From a virus (Duplodnaviria; Caudoviricetes): 61,976 bases of DNA. The position numbers were made by a program, and so were the translations under genes. The stretch covers positions 1 through 61,976 of the IMG/VR virus record IMGVR_UViG_3300030102_001784; one strand, 5' to 3'. A model generated the notes under the pieces. The model was not told the origin of the DNA, did not search any database, and saw only the letters and a list, made by a program, of their open reading frames with translations. Shown piece after piece: positions 5,804-20,603 of the stretch (within the stretch, counting starts at the first letter, position 1; the number at the start of each line of letters is the position of its first letter).

Positions 5804-6030
5804 TAATACTCTAAATCATACTCAACAGATATAGCCATGTTAGAATTAAATTTCTTCCACGGTAATACCTCGTCGTTTTTTTTAATGTGAATATTATATG
5901 ACTTGTCTGATTCGTCTAGCAGTATATGAGATATTTCATGACCACCGTAAACTTGTTGACCTACAGAATAATGCATAGCCTCGTTCTTGTAATCAGAACC
6001 AATGCTAATTTTTCTAATATTATTCTGCAT
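5803..6030 (-). CDS. Hypothetical protein
   Basis: 75-aa ORF translationally coupled to its neighbours. Confidence 0.75.
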   Translation of the reverse strand: MQNNIRKISIGSDYKNEAMHYSVGQQVYGGHEISHILLDESDKSYNIHIKKNDEVLPWKKFNSNMAISVEYDLEY

Positions 6031-6256
6031 CTTTTTTTATTTCAGTGTAGCTACCATCTTTTAAGTCTATATTTATAGAACCATATTCTTCTTCAAGCTC
6101 TGATTTAGTTTTTTCTATTTCTTCACTTAAATGTTTTATTTCTGAAGCTACATTGTGTTTTTGTATCTCAAGCACACCTATTTTATTTAATAGATCTGCG
6201 AGTTTTGTTTGTTGATTAGTTATTTTATTTAACTGATCTTCTTTAATTTTTGCCAT
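6020..6256 (-). CDS. Hypothetical coiled-coil protein
   Basis: 78 aa with heptad pattern; first gene after the class II promoter at 6286-6313. Confidence 0.75.
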   Translation of the reverse strand: MAKIKEDQLNKITNQQTKLADLLNKIGVLEIQKHNVASEIKHLSEEIEKTKSELEEEYGSINIDLKDGSYTEIKKDAE

Positions 6257-6285
6257 TTTATTTAATTTAATTGTTTTATAACTTT

Positions 6286-6313
6286 ATAGTTACACTATTA
6301 TTTAGAAGTTTAC
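6286..6313 (-). promoter_or_regulatory. Class II (middle/late) phage promoter candidate
   Basis: GTAAA-N15-GTAACTAT in an intergenic gap; same geometry at five other sites. Confidence 0.7.
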
Positions 6314-6317
6314 TTTA

Positions 6318-8114: not shown

Positions 8115-8123
8115 TTTGTTTTT

Positions 8124-8285
8124 TTATTCTTTGACCATTAAGTCAGCGTTGTTTTCTGTTAACATAAAGTCTACTCCATTTTCTAATATAATGAAGTCTC
8201 CAACTGGTGGAGCTGTGCCACTACCTTGTGTTAGTGGTATTGCATCAATTGCTAGTGCAACCGCTATTGATAGAGGTGATCCCAT
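8124..8285 (-). CDS. Small structural-region protein (53 aa, not in the ORF track)
   Basis: MGSPLSIAVALAIDAIP...FMLTENNADLMVKE fills the gap between flanking genes. Confidence 0.65.
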   Translation of the reverse strand: MGSPLSIAVALAIDAIPLTQGSGTAPPVGDFIILENGVDFMLTENNADLMVKE

Positions 8286-8286
8286 T

Positions 8287-8808
8287 TTATCTTAGTGCTA
8301 ATATGTCTGAAGCTGATGTACCTGAATTAAGTACTCTTATTACTTGCAAAGGAACATATGAATTATTACCTACATTTTTTAATATTACAGGATTTTCACT
8401 TGAAGCTGGTATAACTGTTAGGTCTCCAGCTGTTCCTACAAACAAACTAAATCCTTCGTTACCAGATTTTCTATTTAAAAAACCACCTGATGCTCTATAT
8501 ATGTCGTAAGAAGTACCACCACCTGTTAATCCTGGTGCTGATAAAGTAAGTTTGATATTACTATCAACAACTTTTATTTGAGCTATGGTGCCTGTACTTG
8601 GTTCATATACTATATCTCCAGGTACTACTCTATTAGAATATCCTGTTCCAGCAGGATTAGTTTGACCGTCTCTGAAAGTTGCAGTAGCGTCATCTAATGT
8701 TGTTCCCGCGCCTGTGTTAGTTCCACTCAAATAACTTCCTGGTTCAGGAATATTTATTACATCATTAGGAACAACTGTTATTGCTTGTGTTGGTTGGTTA
8801 CTTGCCAT
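8287..8808 (-). CDS. Probable virion structural protein
   Basis: 173 aa, beta-rich and G/T-rich, within the tail gene cluster. Confidence 0.6.
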   Translation of the reverse strand: MASNQPTQAITVVPNDVINIPEPGSYLSGTNTGAGTTLDDATATFRDGQTNPAGTGYSNRVVPGDIVYEPSTGTIAQIKVVDSNIKLTLSAPGLTGGGTSYDIYRASGGFLNRKSGNEGFSLFVGTAGDLTVIPASSENPVILKNVGNNSYVPLQVIRVLNSGTSASDILALR

Positions 8809-8814
8809 TTTTTA

Positions 8815-9273
8815 TTATTTATTACTTATTGATTTAAATTTTTCTGCGCCTCGAGATCCAAAATAAGCCACATATACAGTTATTAAAAGTGATTTAAGTA
8901 AATCTACCCAACCACTGTCAACATCAAAATGTACATTAGAGCTTTCTAATATTATCAAAACAATTAAAGATATAGTTAAAAATATAAGCGCCATTGGCCT
9001 GGTGTTTTTGCTAAGCCATGAATCACTTTTCATATCACTAGCCCAACGCTTAGACACTTCTTGCATTTCTACCATATCTTGCTCTAATAACTTTAAAGCT
9101 TTCTCCTTGTCTTCAGGAGTTAAAACAACTGGATCTTCTTTGTTAATTAAGTTCTTTACAACACCTAATAATCCTCGATCAGGTAATACATCACCTACAG
9201 TACCAAGTATACTAGGCGCAGCTTTAGATAAAAACTTACCTACTTTAGTTTCTATAAATTTCTTTTTAGGCAT
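8815..9273 (-). CDS. Holin (GTA-type 3TM holin-like)
   Basis: Likely start MPKKKF at 9273; RWASDMKSDSWLSKNTRP followed by two hydrophobic helices and YFGSRGAEK. Confidence 0.75.
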   Translation of the reverse strand: MPKKKFIETKVGKFLSKAAPSILGTVGDVLPDRGLLGVVKNLINKEDPVVLTPEDKEKALKLLEQDMVEMQEVSKRWASDMKSDSWLSKNTRPMALIFLTISLIVLIILESSNVHFDVDSGWVDLLKSLLITVYVAYFGSRGAEKFKSISNK

Positions 9274-9583
9274 CTTTTGTCTTTTTGTAAGCTTCAGCTT
9301 CCCACGGTAAATCGTGAGCGCCTTCACTCATTTTAGATCTGGAATATTTTTTGCCTTTCCAATAAACGTAATCATTATCATAATCTAAATCACCACGTTT
9401 CATTTGATCAATATGTACCATTTCATGATCAATAACATCTTGAGTTTCTGAAGGTGATACATCTTTGTTAATAATAATTGTTAAATTATTATTGGCTTTA
9501 CCCATAACATCGTCTTCCATTTCAACATGATATATTGGAGTATTGTCTATTTTATATGGAGGATTGTTAAGTTTAAATGCCAT
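9266..9583 (-). CDS. Small zincin-like metallopeptidase
   Basis: HEMVH motif with downstream PWEAEA. Confidence 0.7.
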   Translation of the reverse strand: MAFKLNNPPYKIDNTPIYHVEMEDDVMGKANNNLTIIINKDVSPSETQDVIDHEMVHIDQMKRGDLDYDNDYVYWKGKKYSRSKMSEGAHDLPWEAEAYKKTKDA

Positions 9584-9744
9584 TATCTTCTATTTCTATA
9601 AGGAAACATTTTGTTTAAAGCTTCTTTTCGGCTTTCACAACCGCAAGGGATGTTTAGTCCCCTGCTCATTGTGTCTACCATTTTTTTGATACCAGTAGCT
9701 TTAGTAAACTTCTCTACGCTGTCTCCTAAACCTCTTGATTCCAT
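9583..9744 (-). CDS. Small Cys-containing protein (53 aa, not in the ORF track)
   Basis: MESRGLGDSVEKFTKATGIKK...PCGCESRKEALNKMFPY; coupled to both neighbours. Confidence 0.75.
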   Translation of the reverse strand: MESRGLGDSVEKFTKATGIKKMVDTMSRGLNIPCGCESRKEALNKMFPYRNRR

Positions 9745-9746
9745 AA

Positions 9747-10139
9747 TTATGCTACTACGAAGCTTCTAAAATATACTTTAAGAGCTGGGTCGTAAGCAGC
9801 TGTTGCGTCTGCTTGATCTTGCGGTAATCCACAAGTAGCTTTTACGCCTCCTGGGTTAGCAGTTAAAGCTCTATTAACTGATTGCTTTAATTTTGCTTGA
9901 TACCCTGTTGAAGCTGGTACAGCTGCATTAGGTGCATCTGATGTAGAAGTTGCAACAAGCGCTGTAGCTGTTTTTCCTCCTACTAATTCACATACTACTG
10001 CCATAGCCGTAGCTGTTACATTAGTAGAAATACTTAATACAGTATCTGCTAATAATAAGTTGTCTCCGTCCATTGCAGCGTCTGCTACTCCTGCAGCGTC
10101 AGCTCCATTAATTACTGGGAAATTAATCCATTTTGCCAT
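9747..10139 (-). CDS. Probable structural protein
   Basis: 130 aa, Ala-rich, in the late arm. Confidence 0.55.
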   Translation of the reverse strand: MAKWINFPVINGADAAGVADAAMDGDNLLLADTVLSISTNVTATAMAVVCELVGGKTATALVATSTSDAPNAAVPASTGYQAKLKQSVNRALTANPGGVKATCGLPQDQADATAAYDPALKVYFRSFVVA

Positions 10140-10178
10140 GATTTTTAATTTTTAATTGTTAATATTTGTTTTTGGTTT

Positions 10179-10469
10179 TTATTTAGTGCAATGTGACTTA
10201 ATAGGTGAACCACCCATTTTAGTTACATGTTTCGACATCCAAGACATATCTCTTCCACCTGTAGCATCTTTTACTACTGGCATGTCTTGCATTAAATCTT
10301 TTCTTTCTTGCTTTATTGATTCTCCTTTTCTTGTACCATAGTGGTGGTTTTCAAGTGCCGAATCATTATGATCCATTTTGTATGGACTCATTTGAGTAGC
10401 TGCTTTGTAATTCATATGAACCCCTGGTTTCATAGTCATACCATCTTTTTTTTCTTTCATTTCTTTCAT
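10179..10469 (-). CDS. Small basic SP-motif protein
   Basis: Contains MSPYKM and GSPIK; M/K/H-rich. Confidence 0.65.
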   Translation of the reverse strand: MKEMKEKKDGMTMKPGVHMNYKAATQMSPYKMDHNDSALENHHYGTRKGESIKQERKDLMQDMPVVKDATGGRDMSWMSKHVTKMGGSPIKSHCTK

Positions 10470-10480
10470 TTTTTATTTAT

Positions 10481-10786
10481 TTATTTATGATCTATATTGT
10501 TTTTTCTTGTAAATTCATCATGTAAATGAGCAGCAGATCCATGATGTTTTTTATCATATTTCATATCACCTGCTAGTTTAGAAATATGTTTTTCGTCAGC
10601 TGTCATTTTTTCATCATTATGACCATGATAAGCATCGTACAGCACGTCTCTTTTTAAATAGTCTATATGAGCAGCGTCATCTCTTTCAGTTGCTTTATAG
10701 TTTCCTTTAGTAACTCTTGTGTGGGCATGATCTTTAGACCATTTTGCGTTACCAGTATATTCACCCCAGTGTCCTTTGTGTTTCAT
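10481..10786 (-). CDS. Small His/Lys/Asp-rich protein
   Basis: 101-aa ORF coupled to its neighbours. Confidence 0.7.
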   Translation of the reverse strand: MKHKGHWGEYTGNAKWSKDHAHTRVTKGNYKATERDDAAHIDYLKRDVLYDAYHGHNDEKMTADEKHISKLAGDMKYDKKHHGSAAHLHDEFTRKNNIDHK

Positions 10787-11481
10787 GATTTTGAAGTATA
10801 TTTTTGAAATGCATTTTCTTTTTTTCCTTTATTACCAACGGCATATAAACCATCATCTAGTGTTTGTCCAAATTTGTAGTCAACACCTGCATCAGCAACA
10901 TCTCCAATTCTATTTCCTACTTTGTTAAAACTATCTTTTTCTTTTTCTGCTTGACCTTCCATAAATTCTTTAGTAGCTCCTTCTACTTTGTCAAACATGT
11001 TTTGATACAAGTCAGCTGTAGAAGCATAATCACTAGCGCTCATACCTCCGCCAACATATCCACCCATTTCTATAGGATTATTGTTTTTTTTTAATGGAGC
11101 CATTTCAGCAGCAGCGCCCCTAGCAGCATCTTCGTCTTCTCTTATTTGAGAATTATCTTCTTGTGTTCTAGGTGAATCGTGAGCAGCTTTAGCTTCTTTT
11201 ATTTCTTTTTTAATACTAGCAATAAGTTCATAGTCTTTATCTCCTTGCTCAGCGCCTATTATACCTTTTTGTGCTTTCTCTAATTTTTTCTCTAATTTTT
11301 TATGCTTATGGTATGGGCTCATTGTAGCTGCTGAATCAGATACGTTAAAAGTTTTATTTCCTACTTTAAAACTATTTTTACCTTTTTCTTTAGCATCGTT
11401 TAAAGCTGCATAAAAAGCGTTTTGTTGTAATACTGATATTGGATTTTTATCAGACATCTTTTTTCCAAATGGTGAATTCAT
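10783..11481 (-). CDS. Low-complexity SP-motif protein
   Basis: MNSPFGKK start; internal MSPYHK and MAPLKK. Confidence 0.7.
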   Translation of the reverse strand: MNSPFGKKMSDKNPISVLQQNAFYAALNDAKEKGKNSFKVGNKTFNVSDSAATMSPYHKHKKLEKKLEKAQKGIIGAEQGDKDYELIASIKKEIKEAKAAHDSPRTQEDNSQIREDEDAARGAAAEMAPLKKNNNPIEMGGYVGGGMSASDYASTADLYQNMFDKVEGATKEFMEGQAEKEKDSFNKVGNRIGDVADAGVDYKFGQTLDDGLYAVGNKGKKENAFQKYTSKS

Positions 11482-11672
11482 GATTTATTTTTATTCTTGT
11501 TTTTAATTATACCAAGATCAACCCCACCTGATGATACTATTTTATCATAGTTTACAGAAGAAACAGCGTGTAGCCTTTTCTTTTCTTCTTCAGTTAAAGG
11601 TTTTTCTTTTTTTTCTACTTTTTTAGGAGTTGGATTTTTGGCCATAAAATTTATAGCAAATGGAGAGCTCAT
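11478..11672 (-). CDS. Small basic SP-motif protein
   Basis: Starts MSSPFAINFMAKNP. Confidence 0.7.
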   Translation of the reverse strand: MSSPFAINFMAKNPTPKKVEKKEKPLTEEEKKRLHAVSSVNYDKIVSSGGVDLGIIKNKNKNKS

Positions 11673-11674
11673 AA

Positions 11675-11929
11675 TTAATCTTTTATTGGTCTTTCAGCAT
11701 CATCTGTTTTTTTGAGTTTGATTTTACCATCAACACACTCAAATTCATTTTTCTCTCTGTTATACTCTTTTAAATTAGCTTCAGCGCTAATAGGCTTTTC
11801 ATACTTCTCCATTTTACCATCAGCGTTTCTTCTCATTGATGTTTTGGATTTTCTTTTAGTGTAACCTTCTTTGAACTTTGCCCAAGCCGCTGTACACTTG
11901 TCTTGTTTAAATGGTGATTTAGATCTCAT
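11675..11929 (-). CDS. Small basic SP-motif protein
   Basis: Starts MRSKSPFKQ. Confidence 0.7.
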   Translation of the reverse strand: MRSKSPFKQDKCTAAWAKFKEGYTKRKSKTSMRRNADGKMEKYEKPISAEANLKEYNREKNEFECVDGKIKLKKTDDAERPIKD

Positions 11930-11930
11930 A

Positions 11931-12131
11931 TTAACTATTCGCGTGATATGCTGCTAGAGCTTTTTTAGCCTCTGATTCAGACTTAAAACCGCTTCTCCAC
12001 ACACCGCCTTTTTTATTGTTTAAAATAATATACTCGCCTCCTCTTTTTTTAATGCATCCACTACCGCCTTCAGACTCAGCACATCCTTTGCCGGCTTTTA
12101 AAAATGGACTACTAAACTGTGTATAACCCAT
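11931..12131 (-). CDS. Small basic SP-motif protein
   Basis: Starts MGYTQFSSPFLK. Confidence 0.7.
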   Translation of the reverse strand: MGYTQFSSPFLKAGKGCAESEGGSGCIKKRGGEYIILNNKKGGVWRSGFKSESEAKKALAAYHANS

Positions 12132-12340
12132 TATTTATATGCTTTAGCTCTTAGCGTAATTGGAACACCTGGTTCACAAACGCATGGATATTTAGATACT
12201 TGTAGACCTGTTATACCTGAACTAGATCCTACACCCATAGGAAAACCAACTTTACTTAATGGTCCGTCCCAAATAGCGTTTTCACCGATCTGCCCATCTA
12301 ACTTAGGGTTATTTTTAATTTTTTCAATATCGTGATTCAT
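12131..12340 (-). CDS. Hypothetical protein
   Basis: 69-aa ORF in a tightly packed operon. Confidence 0.7.
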   Translation of the reverse strand: MNHDIEKIKNNPKLDGQIGENAIWDGPLSKVGFPMGVGSSSGITGLQVSKYPCVCEPGVPITLRAKAYK

Positions 12341-12349
12341 AACTTTAAT

Positions 12350-12883
12350 TTATTTTTTAATATACTTATTACTCATAGATCTTTGCCTTGCTAAAGGTCC
12401 TCCAAACATAGCGTTAGCTCCAAGTCCAGCTATACCAAAATTTCTAGTAGCTGGATCCTGTAAATTAGCCATTTCATTTGAAGCTGGCATAAGAGCAGCG
12501 CCCATTGTTGGTTCTAAATCCGCTGGATTAAATTGAGTCAAAGGATCGTAAGCGCTTGGTTGTTGAACAACTGGTTGAGCGTCAACTGTATTTGGTACAG
12601 AATTTTGCACAGCATTAACTTGCTCCATAGCTTGTTGCTCTCTCATTGCTTGTGCAGCAGCGTTAGCTTGGTTTTTAAACATACCCGCGTATCCAAGTGC
12701 ATTTTGCGCTTTAATACCTCTTCTTCTCATTGCTTTACGAGCTCTTCTGTTTTTTCTTGAGAGTTTAGCTTCTCTTCCAAACATATCTTTAAATGCGCCC
12801 ATTCTACTAGCATTAGCAAACCCAGGCACTACTGAAGATGGATTTGCACCCATTACGCTATTTAATGATCCTAATATACTCAT
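12350..12883 (-). CDS. Hypothetical low-complexity protein
   Basis: 177 aa, Ala/Gln/Arg-rich; overlaps the upstream stop codon. Confidence 0.7.
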   Translation of the reverse strand: MSILGSLNSVMGANPSSVVPGFANASRMGAFKDMFGREAKLSRKNRRARKAMRRRGIKAQNALGYAGMFKNQANAAAQAMREQQAMEQVNAVQNSVPNTVDAQPVVQQPSAYDPLTQFNPADLEPTMGAALMPASNEMANLQDPATRNFGIAGLGANAMFGGPLARQRSMSNKYIKK

Positions 12884-13326
12884 CTGTTTTTATCTTTATT
12901 TACATTGTAAATAGCTTTAGTTAAAACTTTATCTGTATAACTTCTACCTGCTATTAACTTGTTTCTTCTTGTGCTTATTGGTAAGTCTTCTTCACCAAGC
13001 ATTATACGATATATTCTAGTTATTAGTTGCTTACCTTTAAAAGACACTTTGTATAAATTGTGTTTTTGAGTAGATCTATTTCTTTTTCTCCAAATAACAA
13101 CCCAATCATTATCTATTAATTTAGCCCAGCGTCTAGTATCCCAACTATAAGAATATGTACCTTGTTTAAAATCTTTTATACTAAAAAAACCTATAGAATC
13201 TAAATAAATCAATAATTCTAAATCAGCATCATTTAGGTTGTTATTTTTACAAGCCCATTTTCTAATTATTCTATAATGCTTTAATAGGTTTAAATCTTTA
13301 ATGTCACTAGCGCTTAAACCTCTCAT
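12880..13326 (-). CDS. Winged-helix (MarR-like) DNA-binding protein
   Basis: NLNDADLELLIYL...KLIDNDWV...LYKVSFKGKQLI matches a wHTH layout. Confidence 0.6.
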   Translation of the reverse strand: MRGLSASDIKDLNLLKHYRIIRKWACKNNNLNDADLELLIYLDSIGFFSIKDFKQGTYSYSWDTRRWAKLIDNDWVVIWRKRNRSTQKHNLYKVSFKGKQLITRIYRIMLGEEDLPISTRRNKLIAGRSYTDKVLTKAIYNVNKDKNR

Positions 13327-13586
13327 GTCACTATAACTACATCCTGCGCTTTTATAACTCTATAAGATTTTTTATCTATTTCAATTTTGTGCCCAGCGTG
13401 TCTATCGTAAAATATAATATCATCGTTAGATACACCTTCAACTTGAGAACCAACAGAAACTACAGATGCTTTTACATATCTAATATCTTCTCTTTGGTTT
13501 TCTGAAAGAAGCAAACCACCTTTAGTTTTAGTAGTACCTTCTTTTTCTTTTTTTATTACTAAATTCCTACCTATTGCCTTCATCAA
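13323..13586 (-). CDS. groES: Co-chaperonin GroES
   Basis: TKTKGGLLL mobile loop, VVSVGS, C-terminal YRVIKAQDVV; adjacent to groEL. Confidence 0.9.
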   Translation of the reverse strand: MMKAIGRNLVIKKEKEGTTKTKGGLLLSENQREDIRYVKASVVSVGSQVEGVSNDDIIFYDRHAGHKIEIDKKSYRVIKAQDVVIVT

Positions 13587-15123
13587 TTCTTAAATTATTA
13601 ATTACACAATCAGTAGATAGTATCGTTGTTGCTACAGAAGCTGCGTTTTTAAGAGCGCTTTTAGTAACCAATAACGGATCAACTATACCATTATCGATCA
13701 TATTTACCATATTTCCTGTAACTACATTAATACCAATACCTTCTTCGCTTGGTGTTTTACTTTTATCGTAACCAGCGTTTGCTAGTATTGTGTTATAAGG
13801 AGATAATATAGCTTTACCTAAAACTTCTTCACCGACATTATTTTCTTTTACATTTAATGCAGCATTCAATAAAGCAATACCACCACCTGAAACTATACCT
13901 TCTTTAACCGCAGCTTTAGTAGCACAAATAGCGTCTTCGACTCTATCCATTTTTTCTTTTAATTCAATTTCAGAGTTAGCGCCTACTTTTACTATTGCTA
14001 TTTTAGCAGCTAACATCGCTAATCTTTTTTCAAGTCTTATAACTTGATTTGGATTTTTTTCTTTCAGTACTTTTTCTTTTATATCTTCAATTATAGCTTC
14101 TATCTCTTCAGATGCTTCATCTACTTGAAGTATTGTACTTTCATGAGTAGTAACACTTTTTAAACAAGTACCTAAATGATCAGCATTAATTACATCCATA
14201 TCATCACCAAGGTCTTCGTTTATTATAGTAGCACCAGTAAGCATTGATAAATCTTGAAGCATTTGCTGCTTGTTGATACCATATGTTGGAGCGTCTATAA
14301 CGTTTACTTTTATGTTACCTTTCATTTTATTCATTGCTAGAGCCGATAAAACACCTTGTTCTAAATCGCCTATAATAAGCAAAGGTTTGTTGTTTTTTAT
14401 TACGTACTCCAGCACTGACTGAATTTGTCTAATTGTATCTATAGGAGATTCAATTAATAATACTAGTGGATTTTCTAGTTCAGCAGCTTTGATTTGTTTA
14501 TTAGTTATAAAATGTGAGTTTTTTAATCCTTTGTCATATTGAACACCATCTATAACTTCAAAGCATGTATTACCATCAGCAGCTGTTTCCATCATTACAA
14601 CACCTGTGTTATCTACAGATTTAAAAGCATCAGCAATTATTTTACCAAGATCTTTATCATTATTCGTAGATATTGCAGCTACTTGTTCTAGCATATCATT
14701 TTTAACAGGAACAGACACAGATTCTAAATATTTTATTACTTTTTCAACAGCACTATTTATACCTTCTTTTAACTCCCTTGAATTAGTTTTATCAACTACC
14801 TTGTAAGCTTCTTCAAGTATAGCATGTGCAAGCACTGTAGCTGTAGTAGTTCCGTCACCAGCTTCTCTAACTGTTTTACGCGCTGCCTCTTTTAATAAGG
14901 TTGCGCCCATGTTTTGTACAGGATCTCTAAGTATTATAGAGTCTGCTACTGTTACACCATCTTTAGTTATAATTGGTCTTCCAGCATTATCTTCTAACAT
15001 TACACACTTACCGCTAGCTCCAAGTGTGGAGCTAACAGCATTTGTGAGTTTTGTTATACCTTTAAATACTTCTTCCCTAGCTTTGTCACCAAAGTTAAGG
15101 TTTTTGACTATTAAGTCTGACAT
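13567..15123 (-). CDS. groEL: Chaperonin GroEL
   Basis: ITKDGVTVA, AGDGTTTATVLA, EGIVSGGG and GIVDP motifs. Confidence 0.97.
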   Translation of the reverse strand: MSDLIVKNLNFGDKAREEVFKGITKLTNAVSSTLGASGKCVMLEDNAGRPIITKDGVTVADSIILRDPVQNMGATLLKEAARKTVREAGDGTTTATVLAHAILEEAYKVVDKTNSRELKEGINSAVEKVIKYLESVSVPVKNDMLEQVAAISTNNDKDLGKIIADAFKSVDNTGVVMMETAADGNTCFEVIDGVQYDKGLKNSHFITNKQIKAAELENPLVLLIESPIDTIRQIQSVLEYVIKNNKPLLIIGDLEQGVLSALAMNKMKGNIKVNVIDAPTYGINKQQMLQDLSMLTGATIINEDLGDDMDVINADHLGTCLKSVTTHESTILQVDEASEEIEAIIEDIKEKVLKEKNPNQVIRLEKRLAMLAAKIAIVKVGANSEIELKEKMDRVEDAICATKAAVKEGIVSGGGIALLNAALNVKENNVGEEVLGKAILSPYNTILANAGYDKSKTPSEEGIGINVVTGNMVNMIDNGIVDPLLVTKSALKNAASVATTILSTDCVINNLRIDEGNR

Positions 15124-15155
15124 AATTTAATTTAATTTAATTTAATTTACTTTTA

Positions 15156-15473
15156 TTATTTAAAAGTCTTAACGACTTGTGGTCCACGAATATGAGCTAG
15201 TTTCTTCTCATAATGGTTAATTGAAGCATCTATTGCTGATTCAGCGCCTTCAATTGTTTCGCGTCTCGTTACATCTATCCACTTTTCGCAACAAGTATCC
15301 TTTTCAGGATTACACTCGCAGTCTGGATCTTTGTATTCGGTTTGATAAAATCCATTTGGTAATTGTACTATTCTCCAGTTTTTCTTTTGAACAATGTGAT
15401 TCCAAAGTTTAACGGCTTCATCGGTTATTTGCGGTTGACTACTCCACGAACTAGTCTGGTAATAAAACGTCAT
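15156..15473 (-). CDS. Hypothetical protein
   Basis: 105 aa; first gene after the class II promoter at 15532-15559. Confidence 0.75.
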   Translation of the reverse strand: MTFYYQTSSWSSQPQITDEAVKLWNHIVQKKNWRIVQLPNGFYQTEYKDPDCECNPEKDTCCEKWIDVTRRETIEGAESAIDASINHYEKKLAHIRGPQVVKTFK

Positions 15474-15531
15474 AATATTTGGTTTTAAGTTTATATTTGG
15501 TTATCGCTCTTCCCGAGCAGGGTATGTTTTT

Positions 15532-15559
15532 ATTATCACTTGGTTTTTTTATTTTTTAC
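15532..15559 (-). promoter_or_regulatory. Class II phage promoter candidate
   Basis: GTAAA-N15-GTGATAAT, intergenic. Confidence 0.7.
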
Positions 15560-15560
15560 T

Positions 15561-16922
15561 TTAAAAGCTTAAGTCTATCTCTCTGTATAGTAGTGAGAAA
15601 TTAAGATCTGAATTACCTTGAGAAACTGAGATTCCACTAGTAGATGTTAAATTAATAGGAACATTAACTGGCACTTGACCGCTTGGGCTAATTGGATCAC
15701 CAATAAAATATGTGTCACTTGCAGAGTTAAGATTAGCAGTATTAAGCGCAGTGTCACCAAAAAGAGATACAGTACCAAGTTGTACAGTTACAACATCACT
15801 AATACCTCCTGCTGAAAAATCGTAAACTATACTGTTAAATTTTAAGTTTATAAGTCCATTTACAATATAATACATTTTTTGTGCACCAGGCGCAGCAAGT
15901 AATTGTATTGTATTTCCACCATTTAAACTAAGCAATTGCGCTGGTGTAACAGTAATATCTAATTGTTTTACATCTGTACCTCCACCACTATTTACCCATG
16001 CAACACCAGTTCCGGTAGAACTTAATACTTGTCCCGCTGTTCCTGTTCCACCTCCTGCTGTTATAGTGCTTTGAAAAGTAGCGTCTCCAGCAATAACTAT
16101 GTTAGCAGAAGTTTCTATAGAGCCTGTAACATTTAAATCATCATTAACATCTGCTTGTCCATCTACTATTATACCTTGCCCAAGTGCTCCTTGAGTTATA
16201 ATAGAATCACCTAAAGTAGTTCCATCTGGAGTAAACAAAGGTACTGTATTTAATGTACCAGATCCTGACAGCGGGCCACCAGTTGTCTCTATTATCTTTC
16301 CATTTGCATCAACTTGTAGATTAAACGTTGGTGTTCCAGTTATCGCACCTGATCCGTAATCATCTAAAGTAACTTCGCCACCAACAAAAAAGTTTCCATT
16401 ACCAGTTCTGTTTATATTTACATTACCACTAGCTTCTAATTCTATTTCTGGTCCACCAGTAGCTCCTCTAGACATAACAAATCTAGATCCAGCTCCTGCG
16501 CCTGCAAAATATAAGTTAACATTTGCCGATGCTCCTCCTGCTGGATGTGTAAAGGTTATTCCTCTGCTTTGCACTGTTGCTTCTAGCAAATCAATACCTC
16601 CGTTGATCATATTTAATTTTGCGCTTTCTATATCTGTGTTGCTTCCATCAACTCTAAAATCTACACCAACAATCACTTCAACGCCATCATCGATAATATT
16701 TGAATTACCTAAAGTAGTAGGTCCAGTAAAAACTGGTATACTTTCTGCGCTACCTAATCCTGTTATAGCACTTTGTGATGTTATTACATATGTAGATATA
16801 GCGTCTAAGTCTACGCTTTTAGTTCTATTCTTATTTTTAGAAGTAGCACTAGGATCTGTTATAATGAATACATCTGATCCTTGTGGGTTATTTTTTTTAG
16901 GATAACTATATATAATTGCCAT
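15561..16922 (-). CDS. Tail/head fibre-like protein
   Basis: 453 aa, G/T-rich; repeated GSGT..TVP.FT...TTLG.S.I units and GTAGQVLSSTGTGVAW fibre motif. Confidence 0.7.
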   Translation of the reverse strand: MAIIYSYPKKNNPQGSDVFIITDPSATSKNKNRTKSVDLDAISTYVITSQSAITGLGSAESIPVFTGPTTLGNSNIIDDGVEVIVGVDFRVDGSNTDIESAKLNMINGGIDLLEATVQSRGITFTHPAGGASANVNLYFAGAGAGSRFVMSRGATGGPEIELEASGNVNINRTGNGNFFVGGEVTLDDYGSGAITGTPTFNLQVDANGKIIETTGGPLSGSGTLNTVPLFTPDGTTLGDSIITQGALGQGIIVDGQADVNDDLNVTGSIETSANIVIAGDATFQSTITAGGGTGTAGQVLSSTGTGVAWVNSGGGTDVKQLDITVTPAQLLSLNGGNTIQLLAAPGAQKMYYIVNGLINLKFNSIVYDFSAGGISDVVTVQLGTVSLFGDTALNTANLNSASDTYFIGDPISPSGQVPVNVPINLTSTSGISVSQGNSDLNFSLLYREIDLSF

Positions 16923-16923
16923 A

Positions 16924-17472
16924 TTACAATTCTAATATTTTGTATGTTAAATATATGACACATGAGCCAATTGGTGTGCCAAATAACGTTGGGTCAAGTC
17001 CGTCCGCTGTACCAAATGATAAACCAGCCCCAAATCTTATGTTCCCTTTACTTATAGCAGCTGATTCTACACCCGCATTTAAGCCACCACCTATTTGATC
17101 CATTACTAATGTTGGTATTTCAGCACTCTGATTACCTGATCCATCTGGATCCCAACTAATAACTCCATTTCCTGTAAACACATAGTTAGATCCAATGCCT
17201 CCAGAACCTTGTGGTGTCAATGCTGCACTGATTATTTGCACTGCTTTATTTGATTCACCAGGTACTAACACTACGGGATTTGTACCTAAATTTCTAATTT
17301 GACTATCGTTAAGCTCAAATCTTTCTGTTATTATTGTAGGAGCTGTGCTTATAGCATTTATACTATCTATAGTTGCTGTTTTGGTAGGATTACCTTCAAT
17401 TGAAGTATCAGATATTAATACTAAGTCGCTACCTTTTGGTGTTATACTTGGGTATGCATTGATTATTGCCAT
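16924..17472 (-). CDS. Fibre-associated protein, short paralogue of 15561..16922
   Basis: Shared N-terminus (MAII.(S/A)YP...GSD...I(S/T)D) and a similar C-terminal domain. Confidence 0.7.
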   Translation of the reverse strand: MAIINAYPSITPKGSDLVLISDTSIEGNPTKTATIDSINAISTAPTIITERFELNDSQIRNLGTNPVVLVPGESNKAVQIISAALTPQGSGGIGSNYVFTGNGVISWDPDGSGNQSAEIPTLVMDQIGGGLNAGVESAAISKGNIRFGAGLSFGTADGLDPTLFGTPIGSCVIYLTYKILEL

Positions 17473-17499
17473 AATTTTTAATAATTTTCTATATTATAT

Positions 17500-17527
17500 A
17501 TACTTACACATAAAGGTGAAAACTTAC
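17500..17527 (-). promoter_or_regulatory. Class II phage promoter candidate heading the late arm
   Basis: GTAAG-N15-GTAAGTAT upstream of the first leftward gene. Confidence 0.7.
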
Positions 17528-17532
17528 AAGCG

Positions 17533-17575
17533 TGACAATAGGGAGTTACTTATATACCTTATAAGGCTTATGTCA
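17533..17575. promoter_or_regulatory. TGACA-N33-TGTCA inverted-repeat site (copy 1)
   Basis: GTGACAATAGGG...AGGCTTATGTCAT; a second copy with the same spacing is at 24589-24631. Confidence 0.7.
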
Positions 17576-17692
17576 TACTTTTAAAAAAACGTTACAAATA
17601 GAGAGTAATTGTGTCCCCCCTACCCGCCACTTTATCTGTAATTCTTAGAAATTTAGCTTTTTTTGGCCACCTCGGGCCTTTTTTTACTATTT

Positions 17693-17727
17693 TTACAGAC
17701 AGATTTTAGCTTTTTATAGATAATATA
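17693..17727 (+). promoter_or_regulatory. Class I (early) phage promoter candidate
   Basis: TTACAGAC-N17-AGATAATATA. Confidence 0.8.
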
Positions 17728-17753
17728 TATGTAAAACAACTTAAAATAATACT

Positions 17754-17861
17754 ATGTTTAAAAAAGATAATTTAATTCAAACACTCGGTTTAATATTTAC
17801 ATTAACCTTTATAATACCATGTCTAACTATGATTCTTGTTCACGTTATTACTACATTATAA
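17754..17861 (+). CDS. 35-aa single-pass membrane peptide (not in the ORF track)
   Basis: MFKKDNLIQTLGLIFTLTFIIPCLTMILVHVITTL; the leader AATAATACTATG matches other early genes. Confidence 0.6.
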   Translation: MFKKDNLIQTLGLIFTLTFIIPCLTMILVHVITTL

Positions 17862-17866
17862 CAACA

Positions 17867-17950
17867 TGACAAGTTGACATGACAGTAAGTCACTGATAAC
17901 TATGACAATATGTCTCAATGACAATATGACATACATATGACATTATGACA
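17867..17950 (+). repeat. Cluster of eight TGACA direct repeats (iteron-like)
   Basis: TGACA starts at 17867, 17875, 17880, 17903, 17919, 17927, 17938 and 17946. Confidence 0.85.
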
Positions 17951-18002
17951 TTTCGCCCAGTACTTTACTAACATTACTAACATATAAATAAATATACAAC
18001 TT

Positions 18003-18037
18003 TTACAAACAAAACTAAACACATTACAGATAATATA
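18003..18037 (+). promoter_or_regulatory. Class I phage promoter candidate
   Basis: TTACAAAC-N17-AGATAATATA. Confidence 0.8.
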
Positions 18038-18074
18038 AATGTAACTAAATAATTAATAACTAAATAAATATACT

Positions 18075-18305
18075 ATGCAAAATTTAATTTCTAAAAGATT
18101 CGTAATAAGAAAATCACTAATCGGTAAAAATCAAAACATTACTGTCAACTTCAAAAACGGTAAAACTTGTACTTACAATCATGATAAAGTATTTGAAATT
18201 ATGAAAGATAAACTAGAAACTATGCCATGTTTCATCAAGTATAAATCTTATACTTCATCAAATAACGTACCAGTTTCAGTAAGAAGTGTTGTCGAAGTAA
18301 AGTAA
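18075..18305 (+). CDS. Early hypothetical protein
   Basis: 76 aa, downstream of a class I promoter. Confidence 0.8.
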   Translation: MQNLISKRFVIRKSLIGKNQNITVNFKNGKTCTYNHDKVFEIMKDKLETMPCFIKYKSYTSSNNVPVSVRSVVEVK

Positions 18306-18322
18306 ACAACACTTTTAAATAC

Positions 18323-18399
18323 GGGTAACTACATGGACAGTAGCGTATGTGCACAGGAGTTTTTTGTGTCGCGTGTGGGTTCGACTCCCACCTTATCCA
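18323..18399 (+). ncRNA. tRNA-like RNA lacking a canonical anticodon arm
   Basis: Acceptor GGGTAA/TTATCC-A with G3-U; T-arm GTGGG-TTCGACT-CCCAC; CTAC/GTAG D-like arm; central irregular hairpin. Confidence 0.65.
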
Positions 18400-18518
18400 C
18401 TAATACATGACTATGAATAAATATTACAGCAAATTACAGCAGAGATTTGTCACGAGTGAAATATACTTTGATGAATTACTATTCGGTACACTCAATGATG
18501 AAAATTACGAGCGACCAA

Positions 18519-18553
18519 TTACAAATAAAACAAAATCACTATCAGATAATATA
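18519..18553 (+). promoter_or_regulatory. Class I phage promoter candidate
   Basis: TTACAAAT-N17-AGATAATATA. Confidence 0.8.
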
Positions 18554-18564
18554 ATAAAATAACT

Positions 18565-18783
18565 ATGCAATTCAAAGATACTAAATTCAAAGAGTTGGAC
18601 GCTAAAGGTCTAATCACTAAAAAACTTCAACAAATTGACGAGTTTGAAGCAAACTACAATCCCAATACTTCAAGTCGAGCTATGAAGAAATGGTGTACTG
18701 ACTATGAATATCGTAAGCGCGAGTGGGAATGGCGTCAAGCTGTAGGTAATTATGCACTAACTAACGCTCATAAATGTTTATAA
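18565..18783 (+). CDS. Early hypothetical protein
   Basis: 72 aa, directly after a class I promoter. Confidence 0.8.
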   Translation: MQFKDTKFKELDAKGLITKKLQQIDEFEANYNPNTSSRAMKKWCTDYEYRKREWEWRQAVGNYALTNAHKCL

Positions 18784-18882
18784 TATGAAGAGAGATTTAT
18801 ATAGATTTGCCAAGGCAAGAAGGTTTGGTGAAAGAATTATACTAATCGAAGACGAGTGGTATAAAAGATTAAACAAAGAAAT

Positions 18883-18917
18883 TTACAAACAAAATATAAT
18901 TACTACAAGATAATATA
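18883..18917 (+). promoter_or_regulatory. Class I phage promoter candidate
   Basis: TTACAAAC-N17-AGATAATATA. Confidence 0.8.
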
Positions 18918-19081
18918 TATAAATAATACTATGCAAACAATAAAATTCTTAGACGAAAAAACCGTCAAAATTACTACTAACAAAGGTAGTTCTATACTAG
19001 AAAAATATCCTTATACTAAAATCTATGACAAGATTGAAAAGAAATATGTGTCAATCAGTATACCTTTTTATACTATAAACG

Positions 19082-19342
19082 GTGATACATATGTATAAAG
19101 TTACTAACATGAAAGAACTGTGCGCTTATGCTAAAGCACAACGTAAAATCAAGGCAGACGAGCATAGGCGTCTAACCTTGCATGACGGTAGGTGTAGTGG
19201 ACTTACTGACAAAGAGTACAATCGAGTACGTGTCAATCAAAAGAAAAACTTTACTAAGTTTCGTAAGTTCACTCACAACCGCATGTGGAAATATCAATCA
19301 AGATACTCAGTAGAACAATTAAAACAAATAAAATCACTATGA
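19082..19342 (+). CDS. Early basic hypothetical protein
   Basis: ORF track; the true start is probably an internal ATG. Confidence 0.7.
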   Translation: MIHMYKVTNMKELCAYAKAQRKIKADEHRRLTLHDGRCSGLTDKEYNRVRVNQKKNFTKFRKFTHNRMWKYQSRYSVEQLKQIKSL

Positions 19343-19701
19343 CAAATTTTGAAATGGAGCGATTTATGCTCGAAGAACAGTTCGTAAAGCGTATGCTTAT
19401 CGACTATAACATTAAAGAAATAACTACACAGCGTCAAGCTAAAAATGGTACTAGACAATTTAAAATGCCTACAGGTCAAGAAATAGCTACATACAAATCA
19501 GGTATGGTACGTAGATGTGACAGTAGCGACCGTGTGTGGCAACTAAATCCTAAGTACAAAACTAAAACTAGATGGGTGCTTCTAACAGAAAACGGTTTAG
19601 AAACTAGAGAATATGATATGTGGGCAAGAGCCAAAGTATATCCTCAACTCGCTAGATTAAACTTTATACTAAAATATTACCTTAAAAACTATGCAAAATA
19701 A
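19339..19701 (+). CDS. Early hypothetical protein
   Basis: Likely start MTNFEMERF at 19339, overlapping the upstream stop (ATGA). Confidence 0.75.
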   Translation: MTNFEMERFMLEEQFVKRMLIDYNIKEITTQRQAKNGTRQFKMPTGQEIATYKSGMVRRCDSSDRVWQLNPKYKTKTRWVLLTENGLETREYDMWARAKVYPQLARLNFILKYYLKNYAK

Positions 19702-19702
19702 T

Positions 19703-19837
19703 ATGAGAACAATTAAACTAACAGAAAACGATTGTACTTTTGTACACTATGTGCTGCGTATGTACGCTGACCAAACACCTGGGCTAGATTCAGAAGACAA
19801 AGAAGAAATACGTGAAGTCGCATGGAAATTTAAATAA
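19703..19837 (+). CDS. Early 44-aa protein (not in the ORF track)
   Basis: MRTIKLTENDCTFVHYVLRMYADQTPG...; fills the gap exactly. Confidence 0.65.
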   Translation: MRTIKLTENDCTFVHYVLRMYADQTPGLDSEDKEEIREVAWKFK

Positions 19838-19838
19838 T

Positions 19839-20018
19839 ATGAGTAAAATGGCAGAACTAGATTTGATTGCACAAGGTGTAGCAGATCACATTAAAGAAAT
19901 TATAGAAGACAGTGTCGATTGGCAGTTAGCTGATGTACCTCTTGATGGTGACGACTATAAAGACTGTAAAGAATATGTAATAAATGTTGCGCTTAACAAA
20001 TTATTACAAACAAAATAA
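19839..20018 (+). CDS. Early acidic hypothetical protein
   Basis: Likely start MSKMAELD within track ORF 19812..20018. Confidence 0.7.
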   Translation: MSKMAELDLIAQGVADHIKEIIEDSVDWQLADVPLDGDDYKDCKEYVINVALNKLLQTK

Positions 20019-20052: not shown

Positions 20053-20241
20053 ATGATTTGTAAATGCGGCAAAAAAGTACACCCAGTTCGTATCGAGCTT
20101 GGTTACAACACTTGTGTCAGTTGTTCTTCAACTAAAAAAGTAAGCTATATTCCTATTATAGCAAACAAACAAGTGCTTGAAGTACAGATAGTATCACAAG
20201 AACTATCAGCCGCAGTACACAAATCTTGGCGACGTAAATAA
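20053..20241 (+). CDS. Small C4 zinc-finger protein (DksA/TraR-like C4 spacing)
   Basis: CKCGKKVHPVRIELGYNTCVSCS. Confidence 0.65.
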   Translation: MICKCGKKVHPVRIELGYNTCVSCSSTKKVSYIPIIANKQVLEVQIVSQELSAAVHKSWRRK

Positions 20242-20243
20242 CT

Positions 20244-20361
20244 GGGCGTGAAATGGTTAGTCAATACAACTGGTGAGGTTTGGGATAGACGTCTTACGAA
20301 ATCTCCAATAGAATAAAACACGAAGTTGATTGAAACGCGGGTTCGATTCCTGCCACGTCCA
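20244..20361 (+). ncRNA. Mini tmRNA-like RNA (tRNA-like domain only)
   Basis: Acceptor GGGCGTG/CACGTCC-A with G3-U70; stemless D-loop AAATGGTTAG; long helix TCAAT-A-CAACT/AGTTG-ATTGA; T-arm GCGGG-TTCGATT-CCTGC. Confidence 0.7.
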
Positions 20362-20366
20362 CTAAC

Positions 20367-20509
20367 AGGGTAAAACACGAAGGACGGTAAGCATAACACC
20401 AAAAGCATCATGTGGTGCCGACTATCGACGGATATAAGCGAGCGTACGGAAGTGTATTATGTGAGGTGGCAAACCTCAGAAAGCGTGGGTATGTGCACAA
20501 TACCACCCT
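20367..20509 (+). ncRNA. Candidate structured ncRNA
   Basis: GC-rich, no long ORF; closing AGGGT/ACCCT, CACG/CGTG, hairpins TGAGGT/ACCTCA and GGTAT/ATACC. Confidence 0.45.
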
Positions 20510-20515
20510 TAAAAT

Positions 20516-20589
20516 TGCGCTGTGGAGCAGTTGGTCAGCTCGCTAGGCTCATAACCTAGAGGTCGCAGGTTCGAATCCTGCTGGCGCAC
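20516..20589 (+). tRNA. tRNA-Met (CAT), initiator-like D arm
   Basis: TGCGCTG/TGGCGCA acceptor; GAGC/GCTC D stem; CTAGG-CTCATAA-CCTAG anticodon arm; GCAGG-TTCGAAT-CCTGC T arm; CCA not encoded. Confidence 0.93.
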
Positions 20590-20603
20590 CTAAAATTAAA
20601 TAT

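What the first reader, a model, noticed from the sequence alone, without database searches (positions are those of the whole stretch)
20244..20361. Minimal tmRNA-like RNA: alanine-identity tRNA-like domain with no anticodon and no evident tag reading frame
Seen: 7-bp acceptor GGGCGTG/CACGTCC with G3-U70 and discriminator A; stemless D-loop; long P2-like helix enclosing one hairpin (GAGGTTT/AAATCTC); 3-nt linker AAC; canonical T-arm; only 118 nt, ending ACTA. Known: G3-U70 plus A73 is the AlaRS identity, and a stemless D-loop with P2 is the SmpB-binding tRNA-like domain of tmRNA, which is normally ~350 nt with pseudoknots and a tag ORF. Inference: an early-expressed tmRNA mimic that could sequester SmpB/AlaRS/EF-Tu, alter ribosome rescue, or act as a decoy for tRNA-targeting defences.
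Basis: partly seen in the sequence, partly recalled or inferred. Interest (0 to 1): 0.78.

Follow-up and report, generated by a model that had tools for sequence, protein, structure and literature searches.

The report
Tag-less tmRNA-like RNA of a phage
A marine phage encodes a 118-base RNA that copies only the tRNA-like end of the bacterial ribosome-rescue RNA (tmRNA); it belongs to a large phage family of such RNAs, a kind that the papers I could read describe for one mycobacteriophage only.

Summary
Window 20244-20361 (+) has a 7-bp acceptor stem with G3.U70, discriminator A, a stemless D-loop, a P2-like helix, an AAC linker and a T-arm. Rfam's tmRNA model matches both ends at 37.9 bits (cut-off 47) with its whole middle deleted; the tRNA model gives 20.9 bits (cut-off 29); ARAGORN sees nothing.

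It is not a one-off. Pattern and synteny scans of viral contigs gave over 100 loci of one marine phage lineage. They carry the same shell (68-185 nt) just downstream of a conserved 62-aa zinc-ribbon ORF. On 47 distinct RNAs, 13 of 17 pairs covary. Pair 3:70 stays G.U in 44 of 47, while its neighbour 4:69 takes four Watson-Crick forms. The interior is hypervariable, modular and shows no shared tag reading frame.

The closest known relative is the 'TLD only' tmRNA of mycobacteriophage DS6A, which my family model also finds (37.9 bits).

The likeliest mechanism, not tested, is an alanine-identity mimic processed like a tRNA. It would engage host AlaRS, SmpB and EF-Tu, and so block or shortcut trans-translation. 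The main rival is a tRNA-like scaffold for swappable RNA modules.

This is a new member of a known but barely documented kind. The window also holds a second Ala-type tRNA-like RNA and an unclassified structured RNA.

The parts
20244..20361 (+). whole tmRNA-like (TLD-only) RNA, 118 nt up to the discriminator
   Evidence: RF00023 37.9 bits; own family model R1 76 bits
20244..20250 (+). acceptor stem, 5' strand GGGCGTG (G3 = 20246)
   Evidence: the acceptor stem covaries at 5 of 7 pairs on alignment A4
20251..20260 (+). D-loop analogue AAATGGTTAG, no stem
   Evidence: nearly invariant in alignment A1
20261..20271 (+). P2-like helix, 5' strand
   Evidence: MFE pairs; the first five P2 pairs all covary
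20272..20323 (+). variable insert with hairpin GAGGTTT/AAATCTC (20275-20305); 44 nt are 95% identical to a hairpin module outside any tRNA-like shell in L039
20324..20333 (+). P2-like helix, 3' strand
20334..20336 (+). linker AAC between P2 and the T-arm
20337..20353 (+). T-arm GCGGG-TTCGATT-CCTGC
   Evidence: 3 of 5 T-stem pairs covary
20354..20364 (+). acceptor 3' strand CACGTCC (U70 = 20358), discriminator A20361 and encoded CTA in place of CCA
20053..20241 (+). 62-aa C4 zinc-ribbon ORF of no known family; it ends 2 nt before the RNA and is syntenic with it across the lineage
20367..20508 (+). 'S unit': a conserved structured RNA between the TLD RNA and tRNA-Met, with conserved ends and a variable middle
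20389..20472 (+). optional module inside the S unit; its core 20410-20462 is 100% identical to the interior of the TLD RNA of L011
   Evidence: a DNA contig joins 20388 to 20473 with TAAC between
20516..20589 (+). tRNA-Met (CAT), also followed by CTA
18323..18399 (+). second tRNA-like RNA: G3.U70, discriminator A, a 4-bp D-stem, no 7-nt anticodon loop, CTA tail; lies in an intergenic gap

Best explanation
What it is (well supported): a phage gene for a small stable RNA made of a tmRNA-type tRNA-like domain only. It has an acceptor stem with the alanine marks G3.U70 and A73, a stemless D-loop and a T-arm. A P2 helix closes it and carries a dispensable, swappable insert. There are no pseudoknots and no tag reading frame.

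How it most likely works (inferred, not shown): it is transcribed with the early small-ORF block. Host tRNA-processing enzymes cut it out, the encoded CTA tail is replaced by CCA, and host AlaRS charges it. SmpB, and EF-Tu once it is charged, then bind it as they bind the same domain of host tmRNA. With no message part it cannot direct tagging. It therefore either competes with host tmRNA for SmpB and stalled ribosomes and damps trans-translation, or accepts the stalled peptide without adding a degradation tag.
For: 1. Structure. The Rfam tmRNA model outscores the tRNA model (37.9 against 20.9 bits).

2. Family. An exact 22-nt shell scan found 64 viral loci holding 56 distinct RNAs of 68-149 nt.

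3. Less biased sample. Loci were taken through the neighbouring zinc-ribbon ORF. 53 of 80 carry a hit of model R1 downstream on the same strand.

4. Covariation. On 47 distinct RNAs, 96.4% of cells are paired against 75.2% in shuffles. 13 of 17 pairs change on both sides. The covariation score is 0.496 against 0.113, reached by 0 of 500 shuffles.

5. Alanine marks. Pair 3:70 is G.U in 44 of 47 and never G-C in that set, while 4:69 is C-G 34, A-U 10, G-C 2, U-A 1. The discriminator is A in 45 of the 47 distinct RNAs of the synteny-only set.

6. The shell stands alone. Members of 68-70 nt carry almost no interior.

7. No tag. 1 of 111 interior ORFs of 6 or more codons ends in AA, and 7 of 56 RNAs have no such ORF.

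8. tRNA-like maturation. 12 of 14 distinct tRNA-Met genes in these loci also carry C-TA after the discriminator.

9. Precedent. DS6A's 'TLD only' tmRNA has the same layout and also an ACTA end. It scores 43.2 bits with RF00023 and 37.9 bits (E 7e-8) with R1. Inhibition of tmRNA by a similar molecule is stated in PMC4131195 and PMC11915505 (passages read).
Against: Nothing was tested for function.

- The match is below Rfam's cut-off.
- No SmpB, CCA-adding enzyme, peptidyl-tRNA hydrolase or RF-1 domain is encoded in the window, so every partner must come from an unidentified host.
- Some paralogues in the same phages lack the alanine marks: acceptor AGGCGTG with G3-C70 and discriminator U in 2 RNAs.
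- The window's second Ala-type RNA has a D-stem, unlike tmRNA.
- 21 of 74 relatives with at least 1 kb of downstream sequence have no R1 hit at E <= 0.01.
- The same interior modules also sit outside any shell. This fits a carrier role.
- The 68-69-nt members share the 8-nt string CTGCTTTG with the anticodon arm of bacterial tRNA-Ala genes. The origin may therefore be tRNA-Ala rather than tmRNA.
- The A4 alignment was fitted to the model, which favours pairing.
Confidence: 0.5

Rival explanations
1. Carrier scaffold. The tRNA-like shell mainly gives processing sites (RNase P, 3' trimming) and stability. The working parts are the interchangeable structured modules held on the P2 arm, which would be protein-binding or base-pairing small RNAs. 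This would be a natural counterpart of the laboratory tRNA scaffold.
For: Interiors are unrelated between members while the shell is nearly constant.

One module of 50-53 nt is 100% identical in three settings: the TLD interior of L011 and L038, and the S unit of the window. It follows the zinc-ribbon ORF with no shell in L266 and L262.

The window's own insert recurs at 95% identity over 44 nt in a separate hairpin in L039. A DNA contig of a marine run joins 20388 to 20473 without the 84-nt module.
Against: Members with almost no cargo (68-70 nt) and a 46-nt form with no P2 at all are kept. G3.U70 and A73 are held while neighbouring pairs change, and a scaffold does not need that. No module matches any Rfam family.
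Confidence: 0.25
2. An alanine-charged or AlaRS-binding mimic that acts outside trans-translation. It could be a sponge for AlaRS, a donor for an aminoacyl-tRNA-dependent transferase, or a decoy for a defence nuclease or toxin that attacks the upper half of tRNAs.
For: Two different Ala-marked, anticodon-less RNAs lie in one phage: 20244-20361 and 18323-18399. Only the acceptor/T half is conserved.
Against: No candidate partner is encoded nearby, and the neighbouring ORFs have no family. The stemless D-loop plus P2 layout is specific to tmRNA. Paralogues without the alanine marks exist.
Confidence: 0.12
3. Punctuation of the early transcript. The tRNA-like fold serves chiefly as an RNase P site that cuts the polycistronic RNA just after the zinc-ribbon ORF.
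For: The RNA starts 2 nt after the stop codon of ORF 20053-20241. It starts 3-4 nt after it in L214, L291 and L215. Its position after this ORF is conserved in 53 of 80 loci.
Against: In most loci the gap is 77-500 nt. An RNase P site needs neither the alanine marks nor a conserved D-loop. Several copies occur per genome away from this ORF.
Confidence: 0.08
4. A decayed tRNA-Ala gene, or a remnant of an attachment site in a tmRNA/tRNA gene, with no function.
For: It has no anticodon arm. The short members share an 8-nt string with tRNA-Ala anticodon arms.
Against: The shell is conserved in loci whose neighbouring protein is only 33-97% identical. There are compensatory changes in all three helices. 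Both the 5' and 3' halves are present, unlike an att remnant. I did not look for an integrase in the window.
Confidence: 0.03

Closest known systems
'TLD only' tmRNA of Mycobacterium phage DS6A (JN698994 28478-28560; listed in PMC4131195, mentioned again in PMC11915505)
   Same: Phage-encoded. Both have an acceptor stem with G3.U70, discriminator A, a D-loop without stem, a short P2 closing a small hairpin and a T-arm. Neither has a tag frame, and both are followed by CTA instead of CCA. Both fall below the RF00023 cut-off (43.2 and 37.9 bits). My family model finds DS6A at 37.9 bits, E 7e-8.
   Different: There is no sequence similarity beyond the shell. DS6A's RNA is 80 nt and 70% G+C, with a longer D-loop. 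It sits in a temperate actinophage that has an integrase. The marine family has a hypervariable modular arm (RNAs of 47-185 nt), several paralogues per genome, and a fixed place after a zinc-ribbon ORF.
Bacterial tmRNA (Rfam RF00023)
   Same: The tRNA-like domain, including the 'AC' before the T-stem and the TGG of the D-loop. Real tmRNAs with the same acceptor GGGCGTG/CACGTCC exist in MAGs labelled Cellvibrionales, Saprospiraceae, Chloroflexi and Lysinibacter.
   Different: 274 of 374 model positions are absent. There are no pseudoknots, resume codon or tag ORF.
CDS-less tmRNAs of organelles (jakobid mitochondria, RF02544; Mallomonadaceae plastids, about 65 bp; PMC11915505, passages read)
   Same: They are reduced to the tRNA-like domain and have no tag frame.
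   Different: RF02544 gives no match at this locus at E <= 10. They are organellar, not viral.
tRNA-Ala
   Same: The acceptor stem sequence and G3.U70 are identical to many bacterial tRNA-Ala genes. The T-arm is shared.
   Different: It has no D-stem and no anticodon arm. RF00005 gives 20.9 bits against a cut-off of 29, and ARAGORN gives no call.
Laboratory tRNA scaffold for recombinant RNA (PMC3753655; only the search listing and the start of its abstract were seen)
   Same: A foreign structured RNA is carried in place of the anticodon arm of a tRNA-like shell.
   Different: It is man-made. Whether the phage modules are cargo is untested.

Membership tests
tmRNA (Rfam RF00023) | Score at or above the curated gathering cut-off (47 bits) | tested here: not met
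   37.9 bits
tmRNA (Rfam RF00023) | tRNA-like domain: 7-bp acceptor stem with G3.U70, discriminator A, D-loop without stem, T-arm | tested here: met
   conserved and covarying in the family
tmRNA (Rfam RF00023) | mRNA-like domain with resume codon and tag reading frame | tested here: not met
   274 model positions are deleted; there is no shared or tag-like ORF: 1 of 111 ORFs ends in AA and 7 of 56 RNAs have none
tmRNA (Rfam RF00023) | Pseudoknots PK1-PK4 | tested here: not met
   Only 52 nt lie inside P2; the MFE fold shows one hairpin
tmRNA (Rfam RF00023) | Alanylation by AlaRS and binding of SmpB | not testable with these tools
   Only the sequence marks G3.U70 and A73 can be read; CTA is encoded in place of CCA
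TLD-only (CDS-less) tmRNA, phage DS6A type | Little more than the tRNA-like domain closed by P2, with no tag frame | tested here: met
TLD-only (CDS-less) tmRNA, phage DS6A type | Same layout as the DS6A RNA | tested here: met
   Model R1, built from the marine family, matches DS6A end to end at 37.9 bits, E 7e-8; both have an ACTA end
TLD-only (CDS-less) tmRNA, phage DS6A type | Inhibits host trans-translation | not testable with these tools
   Known only from statements in PMC4131195 and PMC11915505 about a similar molecule; the primary paper (Mao et al. 2009) is not held
tRNA (Rfam RF00005) | Cloverleaf with D-stem and anticodon arm; score of 29 bits or more | tested here: not met
   20.9 bits; no ARAGORN call
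mt-tmRNA (Rfam RF02544) | Match to the model | tested here: not met
   No match at this locus at E <= 10
Permuted two-piece tmRNA (Rfam RF04321) | 3' acceptor piece upstream of the 5' piece; score of 47 bits or more | tested here: not met
   18.6 bits, E 0.13, with a mismatched 5' strand

The most novel reading that the evidence does not exclude
The lineage runs a modular RNA platform. An alanine-identity tRNA/tmRNA-like shell, and a second conserved shell (the S unit), act as landing pads. Small self-folding RNA modules move in and out of them by recombination, so closely related phages display different modules on the same host-processed chassis. The modules would be the variable, possibly anti-defence or host-targeting, part. 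The shell would supply processing, stability and perhaps delivery to the ribosome through SmpB.
Probability: 0.18. Interest if true: 0.85.

Novelty: new member of a known kind. Interest (0 to 1): 0.58.

Why it matters
In the papers I could read, a tmRNA reduced to its tRNA-like domain is recorded for phages as a single case (DS6A). This window shows the form is common in one abundant marine phage lineage: 422 viral stretches encode the neighbouring marker protein, and 53 of the 80 examined carry the RNA.

The alanine marks are under clear selection. That turns 'do phages tamper with ribosome rescue?' into a testable question with many natural variants, including shell-only, module-bearing and non-Ala paralogues.

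The family also escapes both standard finders, ARAGORN and Rfam at its curated cut-offs. Such genes are therefore probably left unannotated in phage genomes.

Tried and rejected
- Tag frame: all three frames of 56 interiors were read and no shared frame or tag-like ending was found.

- Permuted tmRNA: RF04321 gives 18.6 bits with a mismatched 5' strand, so it was rejected.

- The two Plastid-ycf2 matches on the minus strand (E 0.11 and 0.44) lie over the tRNA and the T-arm and were taken as tRNA-like noise.

- Promoters and terminators: the sigma-70 scan gave 23 sites against 20.1 expected. A TTG-N19-TANNTTTG scan (motif recalled from memory) put no plus-strand site just upstream. Neither was informative.

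- Host tRNA-like domain:
By length classes (a rough sort: some rows, such as L073, L079, L124 and L153, are not family members), it gave 90 tRNA-sized hits, 4 tmRNA-sized, 9 'mini' and 19 unclassified.
  - The six family members lie on small MAG contigs. Three of them belong to one MAG labelled Aliivibrio.
  - The MAG that holds L087 has a normal tmRNA with a different acceptor stem.
  - No host can be named from this.

- Cultured relatives: Cellulophaga phage phi10:1, Flavobacterium phage elemoC 14-1A and Tenacibaculum phage JQ gave only weak R1 hits. Two overlap ordinary tRNAs and the third is an uncalled stretch between two tRNA genes.

- BLAST of 20200-20520 against 50,697 phage records covered at most 13% of the query. 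Megablast of window 1-20000 found nothing.

- RNA runs X21 and X22 laid nothing. X14 laid 11 contigs at low depth, and their ends coincide with DNA contig breaks, so no RNA ends can be read.

- From memory only, I considered a hammerhead-like CUGGUGAG in the insert and a glutamine-riboswitch-like GGACGG in the S unit. Rfam at E <= 10 reports neither.

- The search of earlier findings returned nothing.

Full report
**Setting.** The window is a whole IMG/VR virus record of 61,976 bases, judged 96% complete. It has about 33% G+C. Megablast of its first 20 kb found no near relative among 50,697 phage records. It encodes a primase/helicase, both ribonucleotide reductase subunits, a match to a PHROG family annotated as chaperonin GroEL, an ATP-dependent DNA ligase and very large minus-strand ORFs. 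The primase/helicase is closest to phages of Flavobacteriia: Cellulophaga phi10:1 at 43.5% identity over 96%, then Tenacibaculum and Flavobacterium phages. The stretch is held by marine metagenome runs. A marine Flavobacteriia host is therefore a guess, not a finding.

**The observation.**
- acceptor stem 20244-20250 with 20354-20360, including G20246.T20358
- discriminator A20361, followed by CTA
- D-loop analogue 20251-20260 without a stem
- P2 at 20261-20271 with 20324-20333
- inner hairpin 20275-20281 with 20299-20305
- linker AAC at 20334-20336
- T-arm at 20337-20353

ARAGORN reports only tRNA-Met at 20516-20590. Rfam at curated cut-offs reports only that tRNA. At relaxed thresholds the tmRNA model RF00023 aligns end to end at 37.9 bits (cut-off 47), with 274 of its 374 positions deleted. 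The tRNA model gives 20.9 bits (cut-off 29). The mitochondrial tmRNA model gives nothing at this locus. The fold energy of the single sequence is not unusual (z = -1.61), so the case rests on comparison.

**A family.**
- A degenerate pattern (T-arm, a 65-95 nt gap, then the 5' acceptor and D-loop) found 19 viral stretches. Sixteen of them plainly share the ends of the window's RNA.
- The exact 22-nt 3' shell found 64 stretches. With the window that makes 65 places and 56 distinct RNAs of 68-149 nt. Three further places have a slightly different 5' end.
- When only the D-loop and T-loop were fixed, 30 of 32 stretches had already been found with the exact shell. One new one (L196) has a compensated acceptor change.
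- The interiors are mostly unalignable, but each is closed by a helix. That helix starts right after the D-loop and ends right before AAC. In this register 76% of cells pair, against 24-44% in shifted registers (63% in the one-pair-outward register). 38 of 56 RNAs have all five pairs in the best of 16 nearby registers, so that count is a best-of choice.
- On the MAFFT alignment A1, all five P2 pairs change on both sides. That is 86 such cells against 37.3 in shuffles, reached by 0 of 500 shuffles.
- The acceptor stem and T-stem are constant in that set by construction, so they say nothing there.

**A less biased sample.** The 62-aa zinc-ribbon ORF that ends 2 nt before the RNA has tblastn matches in 55 of the loci already held. 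A scan of viral contigs with an alignment of 16 homologues found 422 stretches that encode a relative, and the best 80 were kept. My covariance model R1, built from A1, hits 53 of these 80 loci downstream on the same strand at E <= 0.01. Of the 27 loci without a hit, 6 have under 550 nt of downstream sequence. Some others carry shorter or broken forms, or a module with no shell.

For the pair counts, the 52 of those loci with a hit at E <= 1e-4 were pooled with the window, L196 and L015. The last two were known in advance to carry compensated acceptor changes, so the set is not purely synteny-based. On the 47 distinct RNAs of the model-fitted alignment A4:
- 96.4% of cells pair, against 75.2% in shuffles.
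- 13 of 17 pairs change on both sides: 5 of 7 in the acceptor stem, 5 of 5 in P2, 3 of 5 in the T-stem.
- The covariation score is 0.496 against 0.113, reached by 0 of 500 shuffles.
- Slid registers pair at 30-46%.
- Pair 3:70 is G.U in 44 and A-U in 3.
- Pair 4:69 is C-G 34, A-U 10, G-C 2, U-A 1 (the single U-A is L196).

In the synteny-only set, which also has 47 distinct RNAs, the discriminator is A in 45 of 47 and the next three bases are CTA in 43 of 46. An alignment fitted to the model leans towards pairing, so these figures are upper estimates. The different pair types are nonetheless real sequence differences.

**No tag frame.** I read the 56 interiors in three frames. 111 ORFs of at least six codons end at a stop, and one of them ends in Ala-Ala. 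Seven RNAs have no such ORF. No frame is shared across subfamilies. Members of 68-70 nt have no room for a frame. Within one subfamily a hairpin goes G-C to G.U to A-U (L005, L007, L012). This fits RNA structure, although both changes would also be silent in one frame.

**What the interior is.**
- It is modular. A 50-53-nt block is 100% identical in three places: the interiors of L011 and L038 (nested in another arm there), and window 20410-20462. The window copy lies outside the TLD RNA, in the spacer before tRNA-Met.
- In L266 and L262 the same block follows the zinc-ribbon ORF with no shell.
- The window's own insert is 95% identical over 44 nt to a hairpin in L039 that has a different closing stem and no shell.
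- A DNA contig from a marine run joins 20388 to 20473 with four other letters between. A relative therefore lacks that 84-nt block.

**Neighbours.**
- The spacer 20367-20508 is itself a conserved RNA, which I call the S unit. It has fixed ends and a variable middle. It occurs in the window, L013, L196, L030, L084 and L039, mostly just before tRNA-Met. Three pairs of its 3' hairpin change on both sides. Rfam has no match for it.
- A second tRNA-like RNA lies at 18323-18399, in the gap between two ORFs. It has G3.U70, discriminator A, a 4-bp D-stem, a long hairpin with a 3-nt loop in place of the anticodon arm, and a CTA tail.
- Other loci hold two or three shells. Some have acceptor stems that lack the alanine marks, and one is a 46-nt form with no P2.
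- Among 66 distinct RNAs that score above 50 bits in the first set, 3:70 is G.U in 63, G-C in 2 and A-U in 1.
- 12 of 14 distinct tRNA-Met genes in these loci also have C-TA after the discriminator. The CTA tail is therefore the lineage's usual tRNA 3' context, and it speaks for tRNA-like maturation rather than a dead end.

**Comparison with what is known.** Four full-text searches and the passages read turned up one phage case. Hudson, Lau and Williams 2014 (PMC4131195) list mycobacteriophage DS6A as 'TLD only'. They state that a similar molecule, chargeable or not, strongly inhibits tmRNA, perhaps by titrating SmpB, and cite Mao et al. 2009, which is not held. The 2025 tmRNA database paper (PMC11915505) repeats this. 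It adds CDS-less forms in jakobid mitochondria and in two plastids.

I located the DS6A RNA at JN698994 28478-28560 (RF00023 43.2 bits). It has the same layout and an ACTA end. Model R1 matches it end to end at 37.9 bits, E 7e-8. I found no description of the marine family in those searches.

**Mechanism.** Shown: the fold, its conservation, the selected alanine marks, the lack of a tag frame, and the syntenic position. Inferred: expression, processing, CCA repair, charging, SmpB binding and the effect on rescue.

The window encodes no SmpB, CCA-adding enzyme, peptidyl-tRNA hydrolase or RF-1 domain, so host factors would have to do all of this. An RNA-library contig of 284 nt covers 20085-20365 almost exactly. 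It is shallow, may be DNA, and ends where DNA contigs also break. The only known route by which an anticodon-less, alanine-marked tRNA-like RNA reaches the ribosome is with SmpB. I therefore rank the trans-translation reading first (0.5), ahead of the carrier-scaffold reading (0.25). The two are not exclusive.

**Verdict.** It is a new member of a known but scarcely documented kind. It belongs to a much larger and more varied family than the literature I could read suggests. Interest 0.58.

Noticed in passing
window 20367-20508: 'S unit': an unclassified structured RNA between the TLD RNA and tRNA-Met. Its 5' end (GGGTAAAACACGAAGGACGG in the window, GGGTTAAAAC... in the five other loci) and its 3' end (CAGAAAGCGTGGG, a hairpin, then CCACCC) are conserved; the middle varies. 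It is present in 6 loci, and three pairs of the 3' hairpin change on both sides. No Rfam match.
   Followed up: partly
window 20389-20472 (core 20410-20462); L011 9394-9446; L038 5947-5996: A 50-53-nt RNA block is 100% identical in three different hosts: two TLD interiors and the window's S unit. It is missing in a DNA contig of a marine run that joins 20388 to 20473. It behaves like a mobile module.
   Followed up: partly
window 18323-18399: A second anticodon-less tRNA-like RNA with G3.U70, discriminator A, a D-stem and a CTA tail, in an intergenic gap. Longer relatives occur in L026 (3639-3742) and L063 (7597-7700).
   Followed up: partly
window 20314-20325 and 20371-20382: The 12-nt direct repeat TAAAACACGAAG flanks the 3' half of the TLD RNA. 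One copy lies inside the insert and the other at the start of the S unit. It may be a trace of recombination between the two shells.
   Followed up: no
window 20053-20241: A 62-aa ORF with four invariant cysteines (CxC...CxxC) and a basic C-terminus has no Pfam or PHROG family. 422 viral stretches encode a relative, and it lies upstream of the tRNA-like RNA in most loci examined.
   Followed up: partly
window 20362-20364 and 20590-20592; loci: tRNA and tRNA-like genes of this phage lineage carry CTA where CCA would stand. The DS6A TLD-only RNA does the same.
   Followed up: partly
L016 7474-7513; L216 just after its zinc-ribbon ORF: Forms of about 46 nt with no P2 at all: acceptor stem, D-loop analogue and T-arm only.
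   Followed up: no
L023, L029, L053, L057, L164 (68-69-nt members): Their short central arm shares the 8-nt string CTGCTTTG with the anticodon arm of bacterial tRNA-Ala(TGC) genes seen. This hints that the shell descends from a tRNA-Ala gene.
   Followed up: no
window 38047-46695 and 50788-56451 (minus strand): Two very large ORFs of 2882 and 1887 aa in the presumed structural block were not examined. ORF 13567-15123 matches a PHROG family annotated as chaperonin GroEL (E 1e-132).
   Followed up: no
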